From assembly GCA_963704165.1 (NCBI GenBank), contig CAVPHD010000004.1, forward strand, positions 254,429-318,428: a stretch of DNA of 64,000 bases, written 5' to 3'. Each line of letters begins with the position of its first letter. The first letter of the stretch is position 1. The DNA is from an uncultured delta proteobacterium (GTDB lineage: Bacteria; Myxococcota_A; UBA9160; SZUA-336). The notes beneath the pieces were generated by a model, which searched no databases, was not told the DNA's origin, and saw nothing but the letters and a program-made list of their open reading frames with translations. Made by a program: the position numbers and the translations under genes. Below are positions 14,146 to 20,488 of the stretch, piece by piece.

Positions 14146-14895
14146 ATGGATCGCGATCGGCTCAACGCACTCCTCGAGAGCTTCGCGCGCGGCGACCTCC
14201 AACGCGAAGAGTTCATGGAGACGCTCGCGAAGCTTCCGTTTCAGATGCTGGGCGACGCGCGCGTCGATACGCATCGCTCGCTGCGAACCGGTTTTCCCGA
14301 AGTCGTTCTCGCCACCGGCAAGACCGCCGATCAGATCGCGCGGATCGTACGCGTGCTTCGCGACGCCGGCGGCGACGTTCTCGTGACGCGCGCGACGGCC
14401 GAGCAGGCGAGAGAGCTGTCCGGCACCGTTCCAGAACTCCAGTACCTGTCGGAGGCCCGCTTGATGGTGCTCCGACAGACGCCGCTCGTCGTTCGTGGGC
14501 GCGGGGTGATCGCGGTGGTCTCGGCCGGGACGTCCGACCTGCCCGTCGCCGAGGAGGCGGCCCTCATCGCAGAGCACTTCGGGAACAAGGTAGAACGCAT
14601 CTACGACGCGGGCGTGGCCGGACTGCACCGGTTGCTCGCGTCGCTCGACGTGCTGCGCGGCGCCTCGGTGGTGATCGCGATCGCGGGCATGGAGGGAGCC
14701 CTCGCTTCCGTCGTCGGCGGACTCGTGGCCGCGCCGGTGATCGCAGTGCCGACGAGCATCGGCTATGGTGCGTCCTTCGGTGGTGTCGCGGCGCTGCTCG
14801 CGATGCTCAATTCCTGCGCCGCGAACGTCACGGTGGTGAACATCGACAATGGCTTCGGAGCCGCGTACGTCGCGTCGCTCATCAACCGCGCCTGA
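14146..14895 (+). CDS. larB: Nickel-pincer cofactor biosynthesis protein LarB (PurE-like)
   Basis: RTGFPEVV, SAGTSDLPVAEEA, DAGVAGLHRL, AGMEGALASV, VPTSIGYG, VNIDNGFGAA. Confidence 0.93.
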   Translation: MDRDRLNALLESFARGDLQREEFMETLAKLPFQMLGDARVDTHRSLRTGFPEVVLATGKTADQIARIVRVLRDAGGDVLVTRATAEQARELSGTVPELQYLSEARLMVLRQTPLVVRGRGVIAVVSAGTSDLPVAEEAALIAEHFGNKVERIYDAGVAGLHRLLASLDVLRGASVVIAIAGMEGALASVVGGLVAAPVIAVPTSIGYGASFGGVAALLAMLNSCAANVTVVNIDNGFGAAYVASLINRA

Positions 14896-14902
14896 ATCCG
14901 GC

Positions 14903-16085
14903 GTGCGCGGCGATCGCGTCCTTCATTTCGACTGCTTCTCTGGCGCGTCTGGCAACATGCTGCTCGGCGCGCTCCTCGACGTCGGTGCACCGGCAGCTTC
15001 GGTGCGAAAAGCGATCGCAGGACTCGGGGTCGGGCCGGTCCGGATGAAGCTCTCTCGCGTCGAGCGCGGCCCGATCAGCTCCCGCTACGTCGCGTTCTCG
15101 GCCCGAGAGCACGACCATCACGGCCGGACCTTTCGCACGGTCCGCGCGATCCTGCGCAAGGCTCGTCTCTCCGAGCGCGTGCGCGAGCGCAGCCTCGACG
15201 TCTTCGAGCGACTCGCGCGTGCCGAGGGCCGAATTCACGGCGTTCCGATCGAGCGCGTGCACTTCCACGAGGTCGGAGCGATCGACGCGCTCGGCGACAT
15301 CGTCGGGGTCTGCGCTGCCGTGGAGTCGCTCGACGTCGCGCGCATCAGCTGCTCGCCGCTGCCCCTCGGGCGTGGCGCCGTGGCGACCGAGCACGGAACG
15401 ATCCCGCTTCCCGCACCGGCGACGCTCGAGCTCTTGCACGGTGTGCCCACCTTGCCGCTCGACGTCCGCTGGGAGACCGTCACGCCGACCGGCGCCGCAC
15501 TGCTGACGTCGCTCAGTCGACGAATTCGGCGCGATGCCCGCGCTGCGCACGCTCGCCCAGGGCTTCGGCGCGGGCGACGACCGCAAGGGCCCGCTTCCCA
15601 ATGTGCTGCGAGCGGTGCTCGGAGAACTCGAGCCGGGTCTCGGGCGCGATCACGTCGCCTTGCTCGAGACGAATCTCGACGACATGAGCCCGGAACACAT
15701 GCCGTTCCTGATGGAGCGTCTGCTCGACGACGGCGCCTTGGACGTCTCGCTCGTTCCGCAGCTGATGAAGAAGGGCCGGCCGGGCCAGCTTCTGCGCGTG
15801 CTCGCCAGACCCGCGGATGCCGATCGGCTCGCGCGCCGCGTGCTCTCGGACTCGAGCGCCCTCGGTGTGCGCGTTCAGATCGTTCCGCGACTCCTGCGTG
15901 CGCGCAGCGCGCGCACGGTGGCGACCCCGTACGGCGCGATCCGCGTCAAGCTCGCCGGACTCGAAGGCAAGGAGATCAGCGTGAAGCCCGAGTACGAGTC
16001 GTGTGCGCGAGCGGCGCGGCGTCACGGTGTGCCGATCGCGAGAGTCACGCGAGCGGCGGATCGCGCCGCGCGGGAGCTCGAATGA
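14903..16085 (+). CDS. larC: Nickel insertion protein LarC, frameshifted near 15515 (one extra base)
   Basis: FDCFSGASGNM, HFHEVGAIDA, PLPAPAT, TPTGAALL; continues in the +1 frame as VDEFGAMP...LETNLDDMSPE...MKKGRPG...KPEYE. Confidence 0.9.
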
Positions 16086-16843
16086 AGGCCGACGGAACCG
16101 CCTTTCGACTCGGCGACCCGCGCGGTGGCGCCGCGCCCGCCGTGCTCTGCGTCCACGGTCTCACCGGCACGCCCTACGAAGTTCGGCCCCCGGCCGAAGC
16201 GCTGGCCGAGGCCGGGTTCTTCTGCGAAGGACCGGTCCTTCCCGGCCACGGCACCCGCCATCAAGATCTGGCTTCGACGCCGCGCGACGCCTGGGTCGGA
16301 GCCGTCGTTGCCGCACACGACTCCCTCGCCGATCGACACGAACGTGTGTACGTCCTCGGTCTCTCGCTGGGCGGACTCCTGGCTCTATCGCTCGCGCAGC
16401 GACGGGCGGTTTCGGCCGCGGTCGTGCTGGCCGCTCCGATCGACCTCGGGCCGTTGATTCGGAACGCCGTGCCCTGGCTCTGGCCGCTCGTGCGATCGCT
16501 TCCGAAGACGCCCGCGATCTTCGACGACGCCGCACGGGAGCGTCATCCGGGTTACGACCGGATGCCGATGCGTGCGGTGAACGAGCTGATCCGTCTCGCG
16601 CGCGAGGTCGAACGCGATCTGCGCGAGGTGCGCGCCCCGGTTCAGCTCATCTTCAGCCGACGTGACCCGACCGTTCCCGTTCACAACGCCGAGCGGATCC
16701 TATCCGCGCTACCGCCCGGCGATCGAGAACTCCACTGGCTCGAGAATTCCGCACACGTGCTGCCCGTGGATCGGGAGCGCGACCTGGTCGCCCGCCGAGT
16801 GGTCGAGTTCCTGCTTCGGCAGGAGAAAACTGCGAGTGGTTGA
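16082..16843 (+). CDS. Alpha/beta hydrolase (carboxylesterase/lipase-like)
   Basis: LCVHGLTGTP, LPGHGT, nucleophile GLSLGG, DPTVP, SAHVL triad spacing. Confidence 0.9.
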   Translation: MKADGTAFRLGDPRGGAAPAVLCVHGLTGTPYEVRPPAEALAEAGFFCEGPVLPGHGTRHQDLASTPRDAWVGAVVAAHDSLADRHERVYVLGLSLGGLLALSLAQRRAVSAAVVLAAPIDLGPLIRNAVPWLWPLVRSLPKTPAIFDDAARERHPGYDRMPMRAVNELIRLAREVERDLREVRAPVQLIFSRRDPTVPVHNAERILSALPPGDRELHWLENSAHVLPVDRERDLVARRVVEFLLRQEKTASG

Positions 16844-16868
16844 CGGCAGCGTCCGGGCTGGGAATCCT
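16840..16868 (+). promoter_or_regulatory. Putative sigma70 promoter of the histone gene
   Basis: TTGACG-N17-AATCCT about 40 nt upstream of the ATG; weak -10. Confidence 0.4.
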
Positions 16869-16907
16869 AGGACACGAACCACGAACGGTTCCGGGGGCGA
16901 AGACGTA

Positions 16908-17120
16908 ATGGCGGAGATTCCCGCGGCCGCAGTGAAGCGGCTGCTGACCAAGCATGGCAGTGAACTGAGAACGTCCGGGACGGCAGTCGAGCTGGCCGTG
17001 GCCGCAGCTGAAGAGTACATCGCGCGGCTCGCCCAAGAGGCGAGCGCATCGGCTCAGCGCGAGAAGCGCAAGACGATCATGGACGACGACATCAAGAAGG
17101 CCCGGCAGGTCGTCGGCTAG
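16908..17120 (+). CDS. Histone-fold protein, archaeal HMf-like singlet
   Basis: MAEIPAAAVKRLL...RTS...(33 aa)...RKTIMDDDIKKA matches the HMf pattern ELP...R...RVS...RKTIxxED. Confidence 0.85.
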   Translation: MAEIPAAAVKRLLTKHGSELRTSGTAVELAVAAAEEYIARLAQEASASAQREKRKTIMDDDIKKARQVVG

Positions 17121-18471
17121 GGGTCGCCTTCGACTCTCGATCGCTCCGCTCCGCGAGCGCCTCGATCACGCGAATCCAGCGTGGCTCGCCGCCGTCGAGA
17201 AAACTGCGAAAGCGGATTCCCGCGAGCACGCTGGCGTAGCCCGGAAGCGTCACGCGCGACATCACGTCGCCTTCGACCTCGATCGGAGCGAACGGGGAAG
17301 GCAGGTCGATCCGGTAGCGCTCGACCGCGCCCGGCAGGATGTCTCGACGCGTGCGCAGACAGACTCCACCGCGAGCGACGAGCTCGGTGAGTTCATCCCA
17401 GTTCTCCGCGGTGGAATCGGTATGCACCACGAGGCGCGCCGGGAAGCGCCGGTATCGTCGATGGGCTGCGTGGTCGAGGAGGTCGAGCAGCGGCTTCTCG
17501 AGTTCTTCCCAACGAAGCGGCTTTGCGACGTAGAGAGCCGCACCCGCATCGCGCGCGGCCGATCGATTCGCGTTGCTCTCGCGTTCGTCGATGAGCACGA
17601 TCGGCAACGTCTCCAGCCCCGGAAGCTCGCGAAATCGCATCGCCAGCTCGAAGCCATCCGCCCGACCCAGACGCACGTCGATGAACAAGAGCGGGTAGCT
17701 CGTCTCGCGGAACGCGGCGAGTCCGCGGGCGGGATCGCGAAGGAGGTCGAGTTCGATCGACCGCTCGGCCAGGTGGCTCTGCAGGCCGGCGAGCGCCTCG
17801 GGTGAGGATGTGACCGCAAGCACCCGGCGTACGCGCTTGGATGAAATCGGGCGTGCATCGCCGGGCGGAGATGGTGCGGGCACGAGTGCACTGCGTGCGG
17901 CTCGCTCGCGCATCGCCGATCCGATGGAGAGCGCGAGGTCATTCGCGGTTTCGAGACTCGCGAGCGGTCGGTAGCGCCGCTCGCTCGGGTCCGTGAGCGA
18001 GCGCGCGGAGAGCTCGCCGCTGCTCGGCAGCAAGAGCTCGCGAGGCGAACGCACCTCGATCGCCCCCGCCGTCTCGTCGAGAAAGCGAAGTCGAGCGCCA
18101 CCCGCGGCCAGCTCCGTCGGCGCGCGCACGCGTTGGAGCCACACGAGTGCCTCGCCGAGGTCCCGAAGTGCGGATGCCCAGGCACGCCGCAGGACGGCCT
18201 CGATGTCCGCGGCCGACTCGCAGCGCGTGACGTCGAGGGCGGGTAGGTCGAAGAAGATCGCCGGGTGGAACAGCTTCAGCCGGTTGTGGCCCAGGGTGTA
18301 GAAACGCACCCGCTCGATCACGATCGGCCGAGGGGAGAGTGTCTCGAGCGGCGTGGGCCCGAGCGGCAGCGAGCCCTCGGCCGACGTGGCCCCGCGAGCA
18401 AGCTCCACGCTGAGCCCGAATGCGCGCAAGCGCTGCACCAGGAACTCCGCGTGACGTTCGGCGAACGACAT
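17092..18471 (-). CDS. Unknown N-terminal domain + receiver domain + PilZ-like domain
   Basis: LLFIDVRLGRADGFEL...YVAKP receiver; RRYRRF RxxxR followed by ARGGVCL PilZ-like strands. Confidence 0.75.
   Translation of the reverse strand: MSFAERHAEFLVQRLRAFGLSVELARGATSAEGSLPLGPTPLETLSPRPIVIERVRFYTLGHNRLKLFHPAIFFDLPALDVTRCESAADIEAVLRRAWASALRDLGEALVWLQRVRAPTELAAGGARLRFLDETAGAIEVRSPRELLLPSSGELSARSLTDPSERRYRPLASLETANDLALSIGSAMRERAARSALVPAPSPPGDARPISSKRVRRVLAVTSSPEALAGLQSHLAERSIELDLLRDPARGLAAFRETSYPLLFIDVRLGRADGFELAMRFRELPGLETLPIVLIDERESNANRSAARDAGAALYVAKPLRWEELEKPLLDLLDHAAHRRYRRFPARLVVHTDSTAENWDELTELVARGGVCLRTRRDILPGAVERYRIDLPSPFAPIEVEGDVMSRVTLPGYASVLAGIRFRSFLDGGEPRWIRVIEALAERSDRESKATPSRRPAGPS

Positions 18472-18567: not shown

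Positions 18568-20488
<1,921 letters not shown>

What the first reader, a model, noticed from the sequence alone, without database searches (positions are those of the whole stretch)
16908..17120. Stand-alone bacterial histone with full archaeal HMf spacing but no tetramer interface
Seen: 70 aa, MAEIPAAAVKRLLTKHGSELRTSGTAVELAVAAAEEYIARLAQEASASAQREKRKTIMDDDIKKARQVVG. Compared by eye with HMfB as recalled, it keeps the DNA-contact and fold residues: R11 (R10), R21-T-S (R19), R54-K-T-I (R52-T54) and D61 (D59). The 33-residue R-to-R spacing is identical, so helix 2 is full length, unlike the shortened one in Bdellovibrio-type histones. The four-helix-bundle residues are replaced: L46 by S48, H49 by R51, L62 by K64. 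Net charge is only about +2. It has its own putative promoter. Inference: an archaeal-geometry histone that cannot stack into a hypernucleosome the usual way, and may bind, bridge or coat DNA by another mode.
Basis: partly seen in the sequence, partly recalled or inferred. Interest (0 to 1): 0.8.

Follow-up and report, generated by a model that had tools for sequence, protein, structure and literature searches.

The report
Full-length histone in uncultured Myxococcota
A small, strongly conserved bacterial gene encodes a full-size, archaeal-style histone, not the shortened kind so far described in bacteria, yet it lacks the residues archaeal histones use to build nucleosome-like stacks, so it probably organises DNA in a different, still untested way.

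Summary
The 70-aa ORF at 16908-17120 (+) is real, under strong purifying selection (dN/dS 0.04-0.11) and a confident histone fold (Pfam PF00808 above cut-off; AF2 pLDDT 96). Helix α2 is 28 aa and α3 is 11 aa. It therefore fails the defining features of the described stand-alone bacterial histones (α3 class: HBb, HLp), and its best sequence and fold matches are HPhA, HMfA, H3 and NF-YB. DNA-contact and fold residues are invariant in 93 relatives. The equivalents of the HMfB tetramer core (L46, H49, L62) are polar and variable. The gene is single-copy and syntenic (larB-larC-hydrolase-histone, convergent with RR-PilZ-groEL-groES) in about 95 of 151 genomes of one uncultured Myxococcota class. 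One family of that class has an empty site there and carries a stand-alone HBb-type histone elsewhere. Related full-length histones occur in Acidobacteriota and Verrucomicrobiota, and the nearest outgroup is archaeal. One family member is listed, undiscussed, in a published supplementary table. The most likely function is a dimeric DNA-binding nucleoid protein without canonical tetramerisation. I rate it a new variant of a known kind.

The parts
16908..17120 (+). Gene for the 70-aa full-length histone-fold protein (P0001), stop codon included. Predicted helices: α1 residues 6-16, α2 residues 24-51, α3 residues 59-69.
   Evidence: dN/dS is 0.04-0.11 against close orthologues. There are 93 relatives at 61-96% identity.
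16840..16868 (+). Conserved promoter-like element: TTGACG (16840-16845, a -35-like hexamer that overlaps the TGA stop codon of the upstream hydrolase gene), a 17-nt spacer, then AATCCT (16863-16868, a weak -10-like hexamer).
   Evidence: Conserved in the upstream alignment of 20 loci. It occurs once in the window against 0.01 expected by chance. The σ70 consensus scan did not call it. Function is inferred.
16893..16897 (+). G-rich Shine-Dalgarno-like run (GGGGG) 10 nt upstream of the ATG.
   Evidence: Read directly from the sequence. A G-run is kept at a similar position in relatives. This is an inference.
16082..16843 (+). Upstream co-directional α/β-hydrolase gene (Hydrolase_4 / Abhydrolase_6). 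It is part of the conserved syntenic block.
   Evidence: Present next to the histone gene in 38 of 80 loci.
14146..16085 (+). larB (AIRC domain) and larC (Ni_insertion domain, split over two reading frames here). These are conserved upstream neighbours.
   Evidence: LarB is present in 72 of 80 loci and LarC in 75 of 80.
17092..18471 (-). Convergent response-regulator/PilZ gene. Its 3' end overlaps the histone gene by 29 nt in this window.
   Evidence: Present in 51 of 80 loci.
18568..20488 (-). groEL-groES, the conserved downstream convergent neighbours.
   Evidence: GroEL is present in 62 of 80 loci.

Best explanation
The gene encodes a homodimeric histone-fold DNA-binding protein of full archaeal/eukaryotic size. 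It serves as a nucleoid-associated protein in one uncultured, class-level lineage of Myxococcota.

Each dimer is expected to present the standard histone DNA-binding ridge: the L1-L2 sites with R21, R54, K55 and T56, and the α1-α1 site with K10, R11 and K15. Through that ridge it would bind and bend roughly 30 bp of DNA without sequence specificity.

The positions that form the four-helix-bundle dimer-dimer interface in HMfB and H3 (L46, H49, L62) are small, polar or basic here, and they vary across the family. The dimers therefore most likely do not assemble into canonical tetramers or hypernucleosomes. The expected behaviour is closer to the dimeric bacterial histone HBb (bending or coating), but with a larger DNA footprint per dimer.

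Shown here: the gene is real and constrained, it is a full-length histone fold, the DNA-contact residues are conserved, the tetramer signature is absent, the gene was inherited vertically, and its distribution complements that of the stand-alone HBb-type histone.

Inferred, not shown: DNA binding, dimer-only state, nucleoid role and abundance.
For: Fold and size:
- PF00808 and PF00125 both score above their cut-offs.
- The AF2 model has pLDDT 96, with α2 of 28 aa and α3 of 11 aa.
- Foldseek best hits are Cse4/H3, NF-YB, HPhA (TM 0.90, rmsd 1.1 Å) and HMfA (TM 0.91). No α3 histone appears in the top 50.
- The family profile's best PDB hits are HPhA, HmvA, the M. kandleri histone and H3.

DNA-contact and fold residues: K10, R21, R54, K55, T56 and D61 are invariant in 93 sequences, and R11 is present in 92 of 93. 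Their roles are described in PMC6136690.

Tetramer core:
- Position 48 is S/A/N.
- Position 51 is K/R/Q/A/N/E, with no conserved His.
- Position 64 is K/R in 86% of sequences.
- Archaeal-type controls in the same alignment show L/F/I, H and L at these columns.
- In Bd0055, mutating the equivalent three residues to the archaeal ones (S45F, A48H, I61L) is enough to confer DNA wrapping (PMC10627809). These positions therefore decide tetramerisation.

Constraint and inheritance:
- dN/dS is 0.04-0.11.
- Synteny is conserved in about 75 of 80 loci.
- The gene is present in 95 of 151 genomes of the class, essentially one copy per genome.

Functional equivalence with HBb-type histones:
- Families f5 and f9 lack the gene.
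- The four f5 genomes examined have an empty site of 67-94 nt in the same block. In the one f9 genome examined (L100), about 3.4 kb separates groEL from larC with no match to the 70-aa histone.
- These families instead carry a stand-alone 62-63-aa HBb-type histone at another locus.
- Genomes with the 70-aa type lack the stand-alone HBb type.
Against:
- Codon usage gives no sign of very high expression. The gene's CAI is at the 10th percentile, against 99th for HU and GroEL. The index is weak in this genome, because ribosomal proteins score only about the median.
- The genome keeps two HU/IHF genes and a ZZ histone, so this protein need not be the main nucleoid organiser.
- Net charge is modest (+2).
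Confidence: 0.6

Rival explanations
1. The protein does oligomerise on DNA and wraps it in a nucleosome-like or other superhelical assembly. It would use a non-canonical dimer-dimer interface, for example salt bridges between K/R51, K/R64 and E/D52, E67, in place of the HMfB L46/H49/L62 bundle.
For: - α2 and α3 are full length, so the helices that form a four-helix bundle are physically present.
- D61, the equivalent of HMfB D59, is invariant. G17, a possible equivalent of HMfB G16, is present in 89 of 93 sequences.
- HLp shows that a bacterial histone can tetramerise and wrap about 60 bp through a non-HMfB interface (PMC12701072).
- Positions 52 (E/D) and 53 (K/R), and positions 66 (R/K) and 67 (E), are conserved charged pairs close to the would-be interface.
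Against: - The three core positions are among the most variable in the family (entropy 2.0, 2.8 and 1.7 bits). That is atypical of an obligate interface.
- Position 64 is basic in 86% of sequences, which would put like charges together across a symmetric bundle.
- The Bd0055 mutagenesis shows that these positions are decisive for wrapping.
- By the criteria of Henneman et al., failure at the dimer-dimer interface predicts no hypernucleosome.
Confidence: 0.2
2. It is not a general chromatin protein. Instead it is a specialised histone-fold factor, in the manner of NF-Y, TAF or CENP histone folds: a sequence-specific regulator, or a protein-protein scaffold that acts with a partner.
For: - NF-YB is among the best fold and sequence matches, and PGAP names some relatives 'NFYB/HAP3 family'.
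- The codon-usage proxy is low.
- HU/IHF and a ZZ histone co-exist in the genome.
- Authors in the field note that some prokaryotic histone folds may have non-chromatin roles (PMC11390915).
Against: - No partner histone-fold gene lies nearby. The neighbours are larBC, a hydrolase, RR-PilZ and groESL, none with an evident functional link.
- All non-specific DNA-backbone contact residues of nucleosomal histones are invariant.
- The distribution complements that of the stand-alone HBb-type nucleoid histone.
- The NF-YB resemblance is generic to full-length histone folds.
Confidence: 0.13
3. It is an artefact: an archaeal contaminant contig binned into a bacterial MAG, or a chance ORF in GC-rich DNA.
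For: - The closest outgroup histones are archaeal.
- High-GC DNA generates many spurious ORFs.
Against: - The gene lies inside a 645-kb contig, between bacterial larBC and groESL.
- The same arrangement recurs in about 75 of 80 loci, including complete 4.5-Mb and 5.8-Mb chromosomes.
- dN/dS is 0.04-0.11.
- The gene is present in 95 of 151 genomes of the class.
Confidence: 0.01

Closest known systems
Archaeal nucleosomal histones (HMfA/HMfB of Methanothermus fervidus, HPhA of Pyrococcus horikoshii)
   Same: - Same length and helix geometry (α2 about 28 aa, α3 about 11 aa).
- Same R-to-R spacing of 33.
- Same DNA anchors (R10, R19, K53, T54) and the R52-D59 clamp.
- Best sequence and fold matches, with TM about 0.9.
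   Different: - The host is bacterial.
- The dimer-dimer core L46/H49/L62 is replaced by S/A/N, K/R/variable and K/R.
- Loop L1 is 1 aa longer.
- It scores below the NCBIfam archaea_histone cut-off, 39.4 against 50 bits.
- It forms a separate starred clade.
HBb / Bd0055 'bacterial dimer' α3 histones (PDB 8FVX, 8CMP)
   Same: - Bacterial, stand-alone, single-domain proteins.
- Shared RKT[IV]M..D L2 motif.
- Neither has the tetramerisation His or the hydrophobic pair. Ser sits at the L46-equivalent position in both.
- The two types have a complementary distribution within the same Myxococcota class, which suggests the same cellular role.
   Different: - HBb has an α2 shorter by 4 residues and an α3 of only one turn. 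The query has 4 more residues in α2, 1 more in L1, and an 11-aa α3.
- The sprocket Arg (R19), not conserved in bacterial singlets, is invariant here.
- The two fall in separate starred clades.
Face-to-face (FtF) histones HLp (Leptospira perolatii, 9QT0) and HTkC
   Same: Both are prokaryotic histones that handle DNA without the HMfB-type hypernucleosome. FtF histones also occur in Myxococcota (PMC11390915).
   Different: - FtF histones are α3-truncated and form a torus-shaped tetramer through both faces.
- The query has a full α3, clusters apart from HLp and 9F2C in the tree, and does not reach the top PDB profile hits with them.
Tailed archaeal histones P0151/P0161/P0291 (uncultured archaeon, 125-kb contig)
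   Same: - Nearest non-bacterial relatives, inside the same starred clade.
- Full-length fold.
- They also lack the H49 and L62 equivalents, having E/N and G/A instead.
   Different: - Archaeal genomic context (L21e, RpoF, archease, RtcB, Nre).
- Acidic C-terminal tails and negative net charge.
- No 1-aa insertion in L1.
Full-length histone-fold proteins of Acidobacteriota (Vicinamibacterales) and Verrucomicrobiota, annotated by PGAP as 'histone-like protein'
   Same: - 70-72 aa, with the same 1-aa-longer L1.
- Same LPxAxVKR ... RKTI.D.D signature.
- Same starred clade.
- Tetramer signature also absent.
   Different: - Only 40-50% identical.
- Different genomic context. In Acidobacteriota the gene overlaps an RNase H gene.
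- Different residues at positions 48, 51 and 66 (H/Y, A and W in the Verrucomicrobiota-like group).

Membership tests
Histone-fold superfamily (Pfam CBFD_NFYB_HMF / Histone) | Scores above the Pfam gathering threshold and has a helix-loop-helix-loop-helix fold with a long central α2. | tested here: met
   PF00808 scores 49.7 bits against 21.4, and PF00125 scores 44.4 against 26.4. The AF2 model has pLDDT 96 with helices H6-16, H24-51 and H59-69. Foldseek TM to histones is 0.86-0.91.
Archaeal nucleosomal histones (HMf type) | Full-length α2 and an α3 of about 10 aa. | tested here: met
   α2 is 28 aa and α3 is 11 aa. The alignment to HPhA has no gap in α2.
Archaeal nucleosomal histones (HMf type) | DNA anchors R10 and R19, the L2 K53-T54 pair, and the R52-D59 clamp. 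| tested here: met
   R11 is present in 92 of 93 sequences. R21, R54, K55, T56 and D61 are present in 93 of 93. Criteria come from PMC6136690.
Archaeal nucleosomal histones (HMf type) | Dimer-dimer (four-helix-bundle) residues L46, H49 and L62, together with D59. | tested here: not met
   Position 48 is S52 A14 N11 among 93 sequences. Position 51 is K28 R23 Q10 A10, with no His among the six commonest residues. Position 64 is K45 R35. Only D61 is kept. Archaeal-type controls show L/F/I, H and L at these columns.
Archaeal nucleosomal histones (HMf type) | A small residue (G16) at the hypernucleosome stacking position. | tested here: inconclusive
   HMMER aligns G17 (present in 89 of 93) with the Gly of HPhA. 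MAFFT instead places the 1-aa L1 insertion at that column.
Archaeal nucleosomal histones (HMf type) | Curated family score (NCBIfam archaea_histone) and an archaeal host. | tested here: not met
   It scores 39.4 bits against a cut-off of 50. The host is bacterial. Published surveys state that the class is exclusive to archaea (PMC11390915).
α3 histones, 'bacterial dimer' subfamily (HBb/Bd0055) | α3 helix truncated to 3-4 aa. | tested here: not met
   α3 is 11 aa, residues 59-69. The definition is in PMC11390915.
α3 histones, 'bacterial dimer' subfamily (HBb/Bd0055) | α2 shorter than nucleosomal histones by 4-5 aa. | tested here: not met
   The query needs a 4-aa gap in α2 when aligned to the HBb-type protein of the sister family, and none when aligned to HPhA.
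α3 histones, 'bacterial dimer' subfamily (HBb/Bd0055) | Clusters by sequence with HBb. This category was defined by sequence clustering. | tested here: not met
   The α3 clade (HBb, HLp, 9F2C, the f5/f9 histones and the ZZ C-terminal domain) has support 100/97*. The query falls in a separate clade with support 100/98*. HBb is not among the top 60 PDB profile hits.
Face-to-face (FtF) histones (HLp, HTkC) | α3-truncated fold that forms a torus-shaped tetramer through conserved R48 and N52 (FtF numbering). | tested here: not met
   α3 is full length, and the query is separated from HLp and 9F2C in the tree. Tetramer formation itself is not testable with these tools.
DUF1931 pseudodimeric histones | Two histone folds in one chain, lacking the DNA-binding residues. 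| tested here: not met
   It is a single 70-aa fold with all DNA-binding residues present.
NF-YB/HAP3 transcription-factor subunits (the PGAP name given to some relatives) | Obligate heterodimer with an NF-YC-type partner, and recognition of CCAAT boxes through NF-YA. | not testable with these tools
   PF00808 finds no second full-length histone-fold gene in the genome. The only other histone-fold gene is a ZZ-type α3 histone. Partner binding cannot be tested here.

The most novel reading that the evidence does not exclude
These proteins are a third, so far undescribed structural class of stand-alone bacterial histones: a 'full-length' or nucleosomal-geometry class, beside the FtF and bacterial-dimer classes.

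Under this reading the class was acquired from archaea. It then spread to at least three bacterial phyla (Myxococcota, Acidobacteriota, Verrucomicrobiota). Within one Myxococcota class it displaced the HBb-type histone as a principal nucleoid protein. It would organise DNA by a mode not yet seen for a full-size histone dimer: either coating or bending without tetramers, or wrapping through a new interface.
Probability: 0.4. Interest if true: 0.8.

Novelty: new variant of a known kind. Interest (0 to 1): 0.65.

Why it matters
Current surveys make two generalisations. One is that nucleosomal-type (full-length) histones are exclusive to archaea. [quoted passage not shown] Only two bacterial histones, HBb and HLp, both of the shortened α3 type, have been studied in detail (PMC11390915, PMC10627809, PMC13260811).

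This family is a clear counter-example to the second generalisation. It is bacterial, inherited vertically across a whole class-level lineage, full length, and related to further full-length histones in two other phyla.

It also offers a natural experiment. Within one bacterial class, closely related genomes carry either the full-length histone or the HBb-type histone in the stand-alone role, always alongside a ZZ histone. Comparing the two could show which properties of a histone dimer (size, DNA footprint, ability to tetramerise) matter for bacterial chromatin.

Because the family keeps every DNA-contact residue but has lost the tetramer core, it would also test directly whether a full-size histone dimer alone bends, coats or wraps DNA.

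The protein is only 70 aa, so it is easy to synthesise and to study in vitro or in E. coli, even though the hosts are uncultured.

Tried and rejected

2. Codon-usage proxy for abundance. The histone gene sits at the 10th CAI percentile, but ribosomal proteins score only about the median, so the index discriminates poorly. I treat it as weak negative evidence only.

3. σ70 consensus scan. It found no promoter. Phylogenetic footprinting later found a conserved TTGACG-17 nt-AATCCT element.

4. 5'-UTR inverted repeat GAACC-N6-GGTTC. It is not more stable than shuffled sequence (z = +1.1), so I dropped it.

5. Positional orthology of the two histone types. This is rejected. The HBb-type gene of family f5 is not in the larC-groEL block, and that block has an empty site in f5.

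6. Polarity of gain versus loss. A GroEL tree with outgroups leaves the deep branches of the class as a polytomy, so this is unresolved.

7. Published category. I tried to find how Schwab et al. classified the family, but no UniProt accessions were available for members. The supplementary JSON holds only accessions and is truncated.

8. My early statement that this is the only histone-fold gene in the genome, based on PF00808, was wrong. A ZZ-type α3 histone was found with an HBb-type query.

10. Contamination or a spurious ORF is rejected on synteny and dN/dS.

Full report
**Observation**

It matches Pfam CBFD_NFYB_HMF (49.7 bits against a cut-off of 21.4) and Histone (44.4 bits against 26.4). 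It scores below the curated NCBIfam archaea_histone cut-off, 39.4 against 50 bits.

Against solved structures, the best sequence match is the archaeal nucleosomal histone HPhA (1KU5). That alignment has one 1-residue gap in loop L1 and none in α2, so the 33-residue spacing between R21 and R54 equals that of HPhA. A profile of the family again ranks HPhA, HmvA, the M. kandleri histone, H3 and HMfA first. HBb and HLp are not in the top 60.

**Structure**

An AlphaFold2 model built from a 93-sequence alignment is confident (mean pLDDT 96). It has helices at residues 6-16, 24-51 (28 aa) and 59-69 (11 aa). Foldseek against the PDB returns only full-length histone folds at the top: Cse4/H3, NF-YB, HPhA (TM 0.90, rmsd 1.1 Å) and HMfA (TM 0.91).

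The published definition of the bacterial and archaeal 'α3 histones' is an α3 helix of 3-4 aa and an α2 shorter by 4-5 aa. [quoted passage not shown] Hocher et al. call the short α2 'diagnostic of bacterial singlet histones'. They also note that the sprocket arginine R19 is not conserved in bacterial histones (PMC10627809). This protein fails both α3 criteria and keeps R19, as R21.

**A bacterial, vertically inherited gene**

The family has 105 clusters at 63-99% identity in the large protein collection. A scan of one genome per GTDB species found 124 loci. Nearly all are labelled Myxococcota, Deltaproteobacteria or Myxococcales MAGs, and they include complete chromosomes of 4.5 and 5.8 Mb.

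Isolate names such as UBA9160, UBA6930, SZUA-336 and PRO3 suggest the GTDB class UBA9160. That assignment rests on my memory and was not tested.

In about 75 of 80 loci the gene lies in the same block: larB-larC-(α/β-hydrolase)-histone, convergent with (response regulator-PilZ)-groEL-groES. Pairwise dN/dS against orthologues with unsaturated dS is 0.04-0.11.

A profile search of 151 genomes of the window's class finds a strong single hit (E of 1e-27 to 1e-40) in 95 genomes, in families f1-f4, f6-f8, f10 and f11. The misses within those families are mostly low-completeness genomes. Families f5 and f9 have none. Of about 320 genomes from the rest of the phylum, none has a strong hit; four have only weak matches (E of 5e-7 to 1e-3) to other histone-fold types.

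**Complementary distribution with an HBb-type histone**

The weak hits in family f5 are a different protein of 63 aa (MSDSxEVIVVASKVK...GRKTVLDRDIP). It matches HBb/Bd0055 structures at E = 1e-14 and HLp at 2e-8. Compared with it, the 70-aa protein has 4 extra residues in α2 and 1 in L1, besides the long α3.

This stand-alone HBb-type gene occurs only in f5 and f9. It lies at another locus. In the four f5 genomes examined, the larB-larC-hydrolase / RR-PilZ block is intact, but only 67-94 nt lie where the 70-aa gene would be.

Most genomes of the class, including the window's own, also encode a longer ZZ-type histone, with an N-terminal Cys/His zinc finger and a C-terminal HBb-like fold. The window's copy is 173 aa and lies on contig C3. 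The Pfam model had missed it. The window's genome also has two HU/IHF genes.

So the class always has a ZZ histone, and the stand-alone slot is filled by either the 70-aa type or the HBb type. This argues, by inference, for equivalent cellular roles.

A GroEL tree with outgroups could not resolve whether f5 is basal. Gain versus displacement is therefore undecided.

**Interface and DNA-contact residues**

Henneman et al. give the relevant HMfB residues (PMC6136690):
- Dimer core: A24, L28, L32, I39, A43.
- Fold clamp: R52-D59.
- DNA anchors: R10 and R19.
- Dimer-dimer interface: H49-D59 hydrogen bond plus L46 and L62.
- Stacking position: G16.

In 93 family members K10, R21, R54, K55, T56 and D61 are invariant, and R11 is present in 92 of 93. 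The three tetramer-core equivalents are among the most variable positions:
- Position 48: S52 A14 N11.
- Position 51: K28 R23 Q10 A10, with no conserved His.
- Position 64: K45 R35.

In the same alignment, archaeal-type histones show L/F/I (22 of 28), H (15 of 28) and L (11 of 28) at those columns. The α3 histones show S/N, S/A/N and a gap. The G16 equivalence depends on where the aligner places the extra L1 residue, so that criterion is inconclusive.

Hocher et al. showed that changing exactly these three positions in Bd0055 to the archaeal residues suffices to make it wrap DNA. That supports reading their absence here as loss of canonical tetramerisation.

Net charge is +2 for the query and as the family median, within the range of archaeal-type and α3 histones.

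**Wider relatives and origin**

An exhaustive profile search of 1.84 billion representatives gives only 419 hits at E ≤ 1e-3. The family itself collapses to about five representatives. Below it lies a tier of other full-length folds that share the LPxAxVKR...RKTI.D.D signature.

A follow-up search and cluster look-up name these as Acidobacteriota/Vicinamibacterales (one on a 5.5-Mb contig) and Verrucomicrobiota proteins. PGAP annotates them 'histone-like protein', 'histone' or 'NFYB/HAP3 family'.

In a maximum-likelihood tree:
- All α3 histones (HBb, HLp, 9F2C, the f5/f9 proteins and the ZZ C-terminal domain) form one clade (100/97*).
- All 47 full-length sequences of this kind form another (100/98*), apart from the HPhA-containing archaeal-type background.
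- The Acidobacteriota/Verrucomicrobiota group (99/99*) sits, with weak support, inside a Myxococcota grade.

Among the near-basal members of the full-length clade, a well-supported subgroup (P0151, P0161, P0291) carries acidic tails. P0291 lies on a 125-kb contig with archaeal markers (L21e, RpoF, archease, RtcB, Nre). Another near-basal member, P0138, has bacterial-looking neighbours.

The simplest reading is an archaeal origin followed by spread among bacteria. The tree is short (71 columns) and its rooting is uncertain.

The 1-aa-longer L1 is shared by the Myxococcota, Acidobacteriota-like and Verrucomicrobiota-like groups, but not by the archaeal relatives.

**Transcription signals**

A σ70 consensus scan finds no promoter. 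However, the 64-nt intergenic region holds TTGACG (16840-16845, overlapping the upstream stop codon), 17 nt, then AATCCT (16863-16868). This is conserved in relatives down to about 67% protein identity and is unique in the window against 0.01 expected.

This supports an own promoter by phylogenetic footprint only. A small 5'-UTR hairpin is not significant.

**Expression**

A CAI computed from the genome's ribosomal-protein cluster puts the histone gene at the 10th percentile, HU at the 79th and 99th, the ZZ histone at the 96th and GroEL at the 99.5th. Ribosomal proteins themselves sit at about the median, so the index is weak. I count this as weak evidence against very high abundance.

**What is known**

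The library holds no paper that describes full-length histones in Myxococcota, Acidobacteriota or Verrucomicrobiota. [quoted passage not shown]

One member of this family (UBA6930, DKAI01000097.1-5, 70 aa) is listed in Supplementary Table 1 of Hocher et al. It is not discussed there, and singlets longer than 65 aa were excluded from their α2 analysis. Schwab et al. have an 'undefined' category that includes bacterial proteins. I could not determine whether this family is in it.

An earlier agent of this scan reached the same reading for a relative in another genome. I treat that as a repeat, not as independent evidence.

**Verdict**

The most likely function is a homodimeric, non-specific DNA-binding nucleoid protein of full histone size that does not form canonical tetramers (confidence 0.6). 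The rivals are a non-canonical wrapping oligomer (0.2), a specialised non-chromatin histone-fold factor (0.13) and an artefact (about 0.01).

I rate it a new variant of a known kind: bacterial histones, but a full-length class outside FtF and bacterial dimers. It has been catalogued but not described, and it is readily testable in vitro.

Noticed in passing
Own genome contig C3, about 162018-162539 (-), which is L104 619..1140 (-). Not in the window.: A 173-aa ZZ-type histone, with an N-terminal Cys/His zinc-finger domain and a C-terminal HBb-like α3 histone fold. It is present in most genomes of the class alongside either stand-alone histone type. Its codon adaptation is at the 96th percentile, far above that of the 70-aa histone gene.
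   Followed up: partly
window 14849-16085 (+): larC (Ni_insertion, PF01969) is split over two reading frames. Model positions 1-198 lie in the frame that starts at 14849, and positions 206-374 lie in the frame of 15534-16085. This could be an assembly frameshift or a real or programmed one. From memory, Lactobacillus plantarum larC1/larC2 is joined by a programmed frameshift.
   Followed up: no
L108 and L109, 6001-6219 and 6216-6881: In Acidobacteriota (Vicinamibacterales-type) relatives, the full-length histone gene overlaps a downstream RNase H gene by 4 nt. That suggests translational coupling of a histone with RNase H.
   Followed up: no
L106 10001-10279 (P0291); also P0151 and P0161: The nearest archaeal relatives are histones with acidic, low-complexity C-terminal tails, on a contig with archaeal markers (L21e, RpoF, archease, RtcB, Nre). 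They also lack the H49 and L62 equivalents.
   Followed up: partly
L092-L096 (family f5 genomes) and L105 548-736 (family f9): A stand-alone 62-63-aa HBb-type 'bacterial dimer' histone fills the stand-alone slot in the two families of the class that lack the 70-aa gene. The larC/groEL block there has an empty site of 67-94 nt (L099, L101-L103).
   Followed up: yes
L090 and L091 (other classes of the phylum): Other histone-fold architectures occur in the same phylum: a tandem doublet of HBb-like folds (L090) and another ZZ-like long form (L091). L087 holds a full-length fold with a roughly 40-aa C-terminal extension.
   Followed up: no
window 17092-17120: The convergent histone and RR-PilZ ORFs overlap by 29 nt at their 3' ends in this window. 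The overlapping C-terminal part of RR-PilZ is not conserved in relatives, so the annotated end of that ORF may be an over-extension.
   Followed up: no
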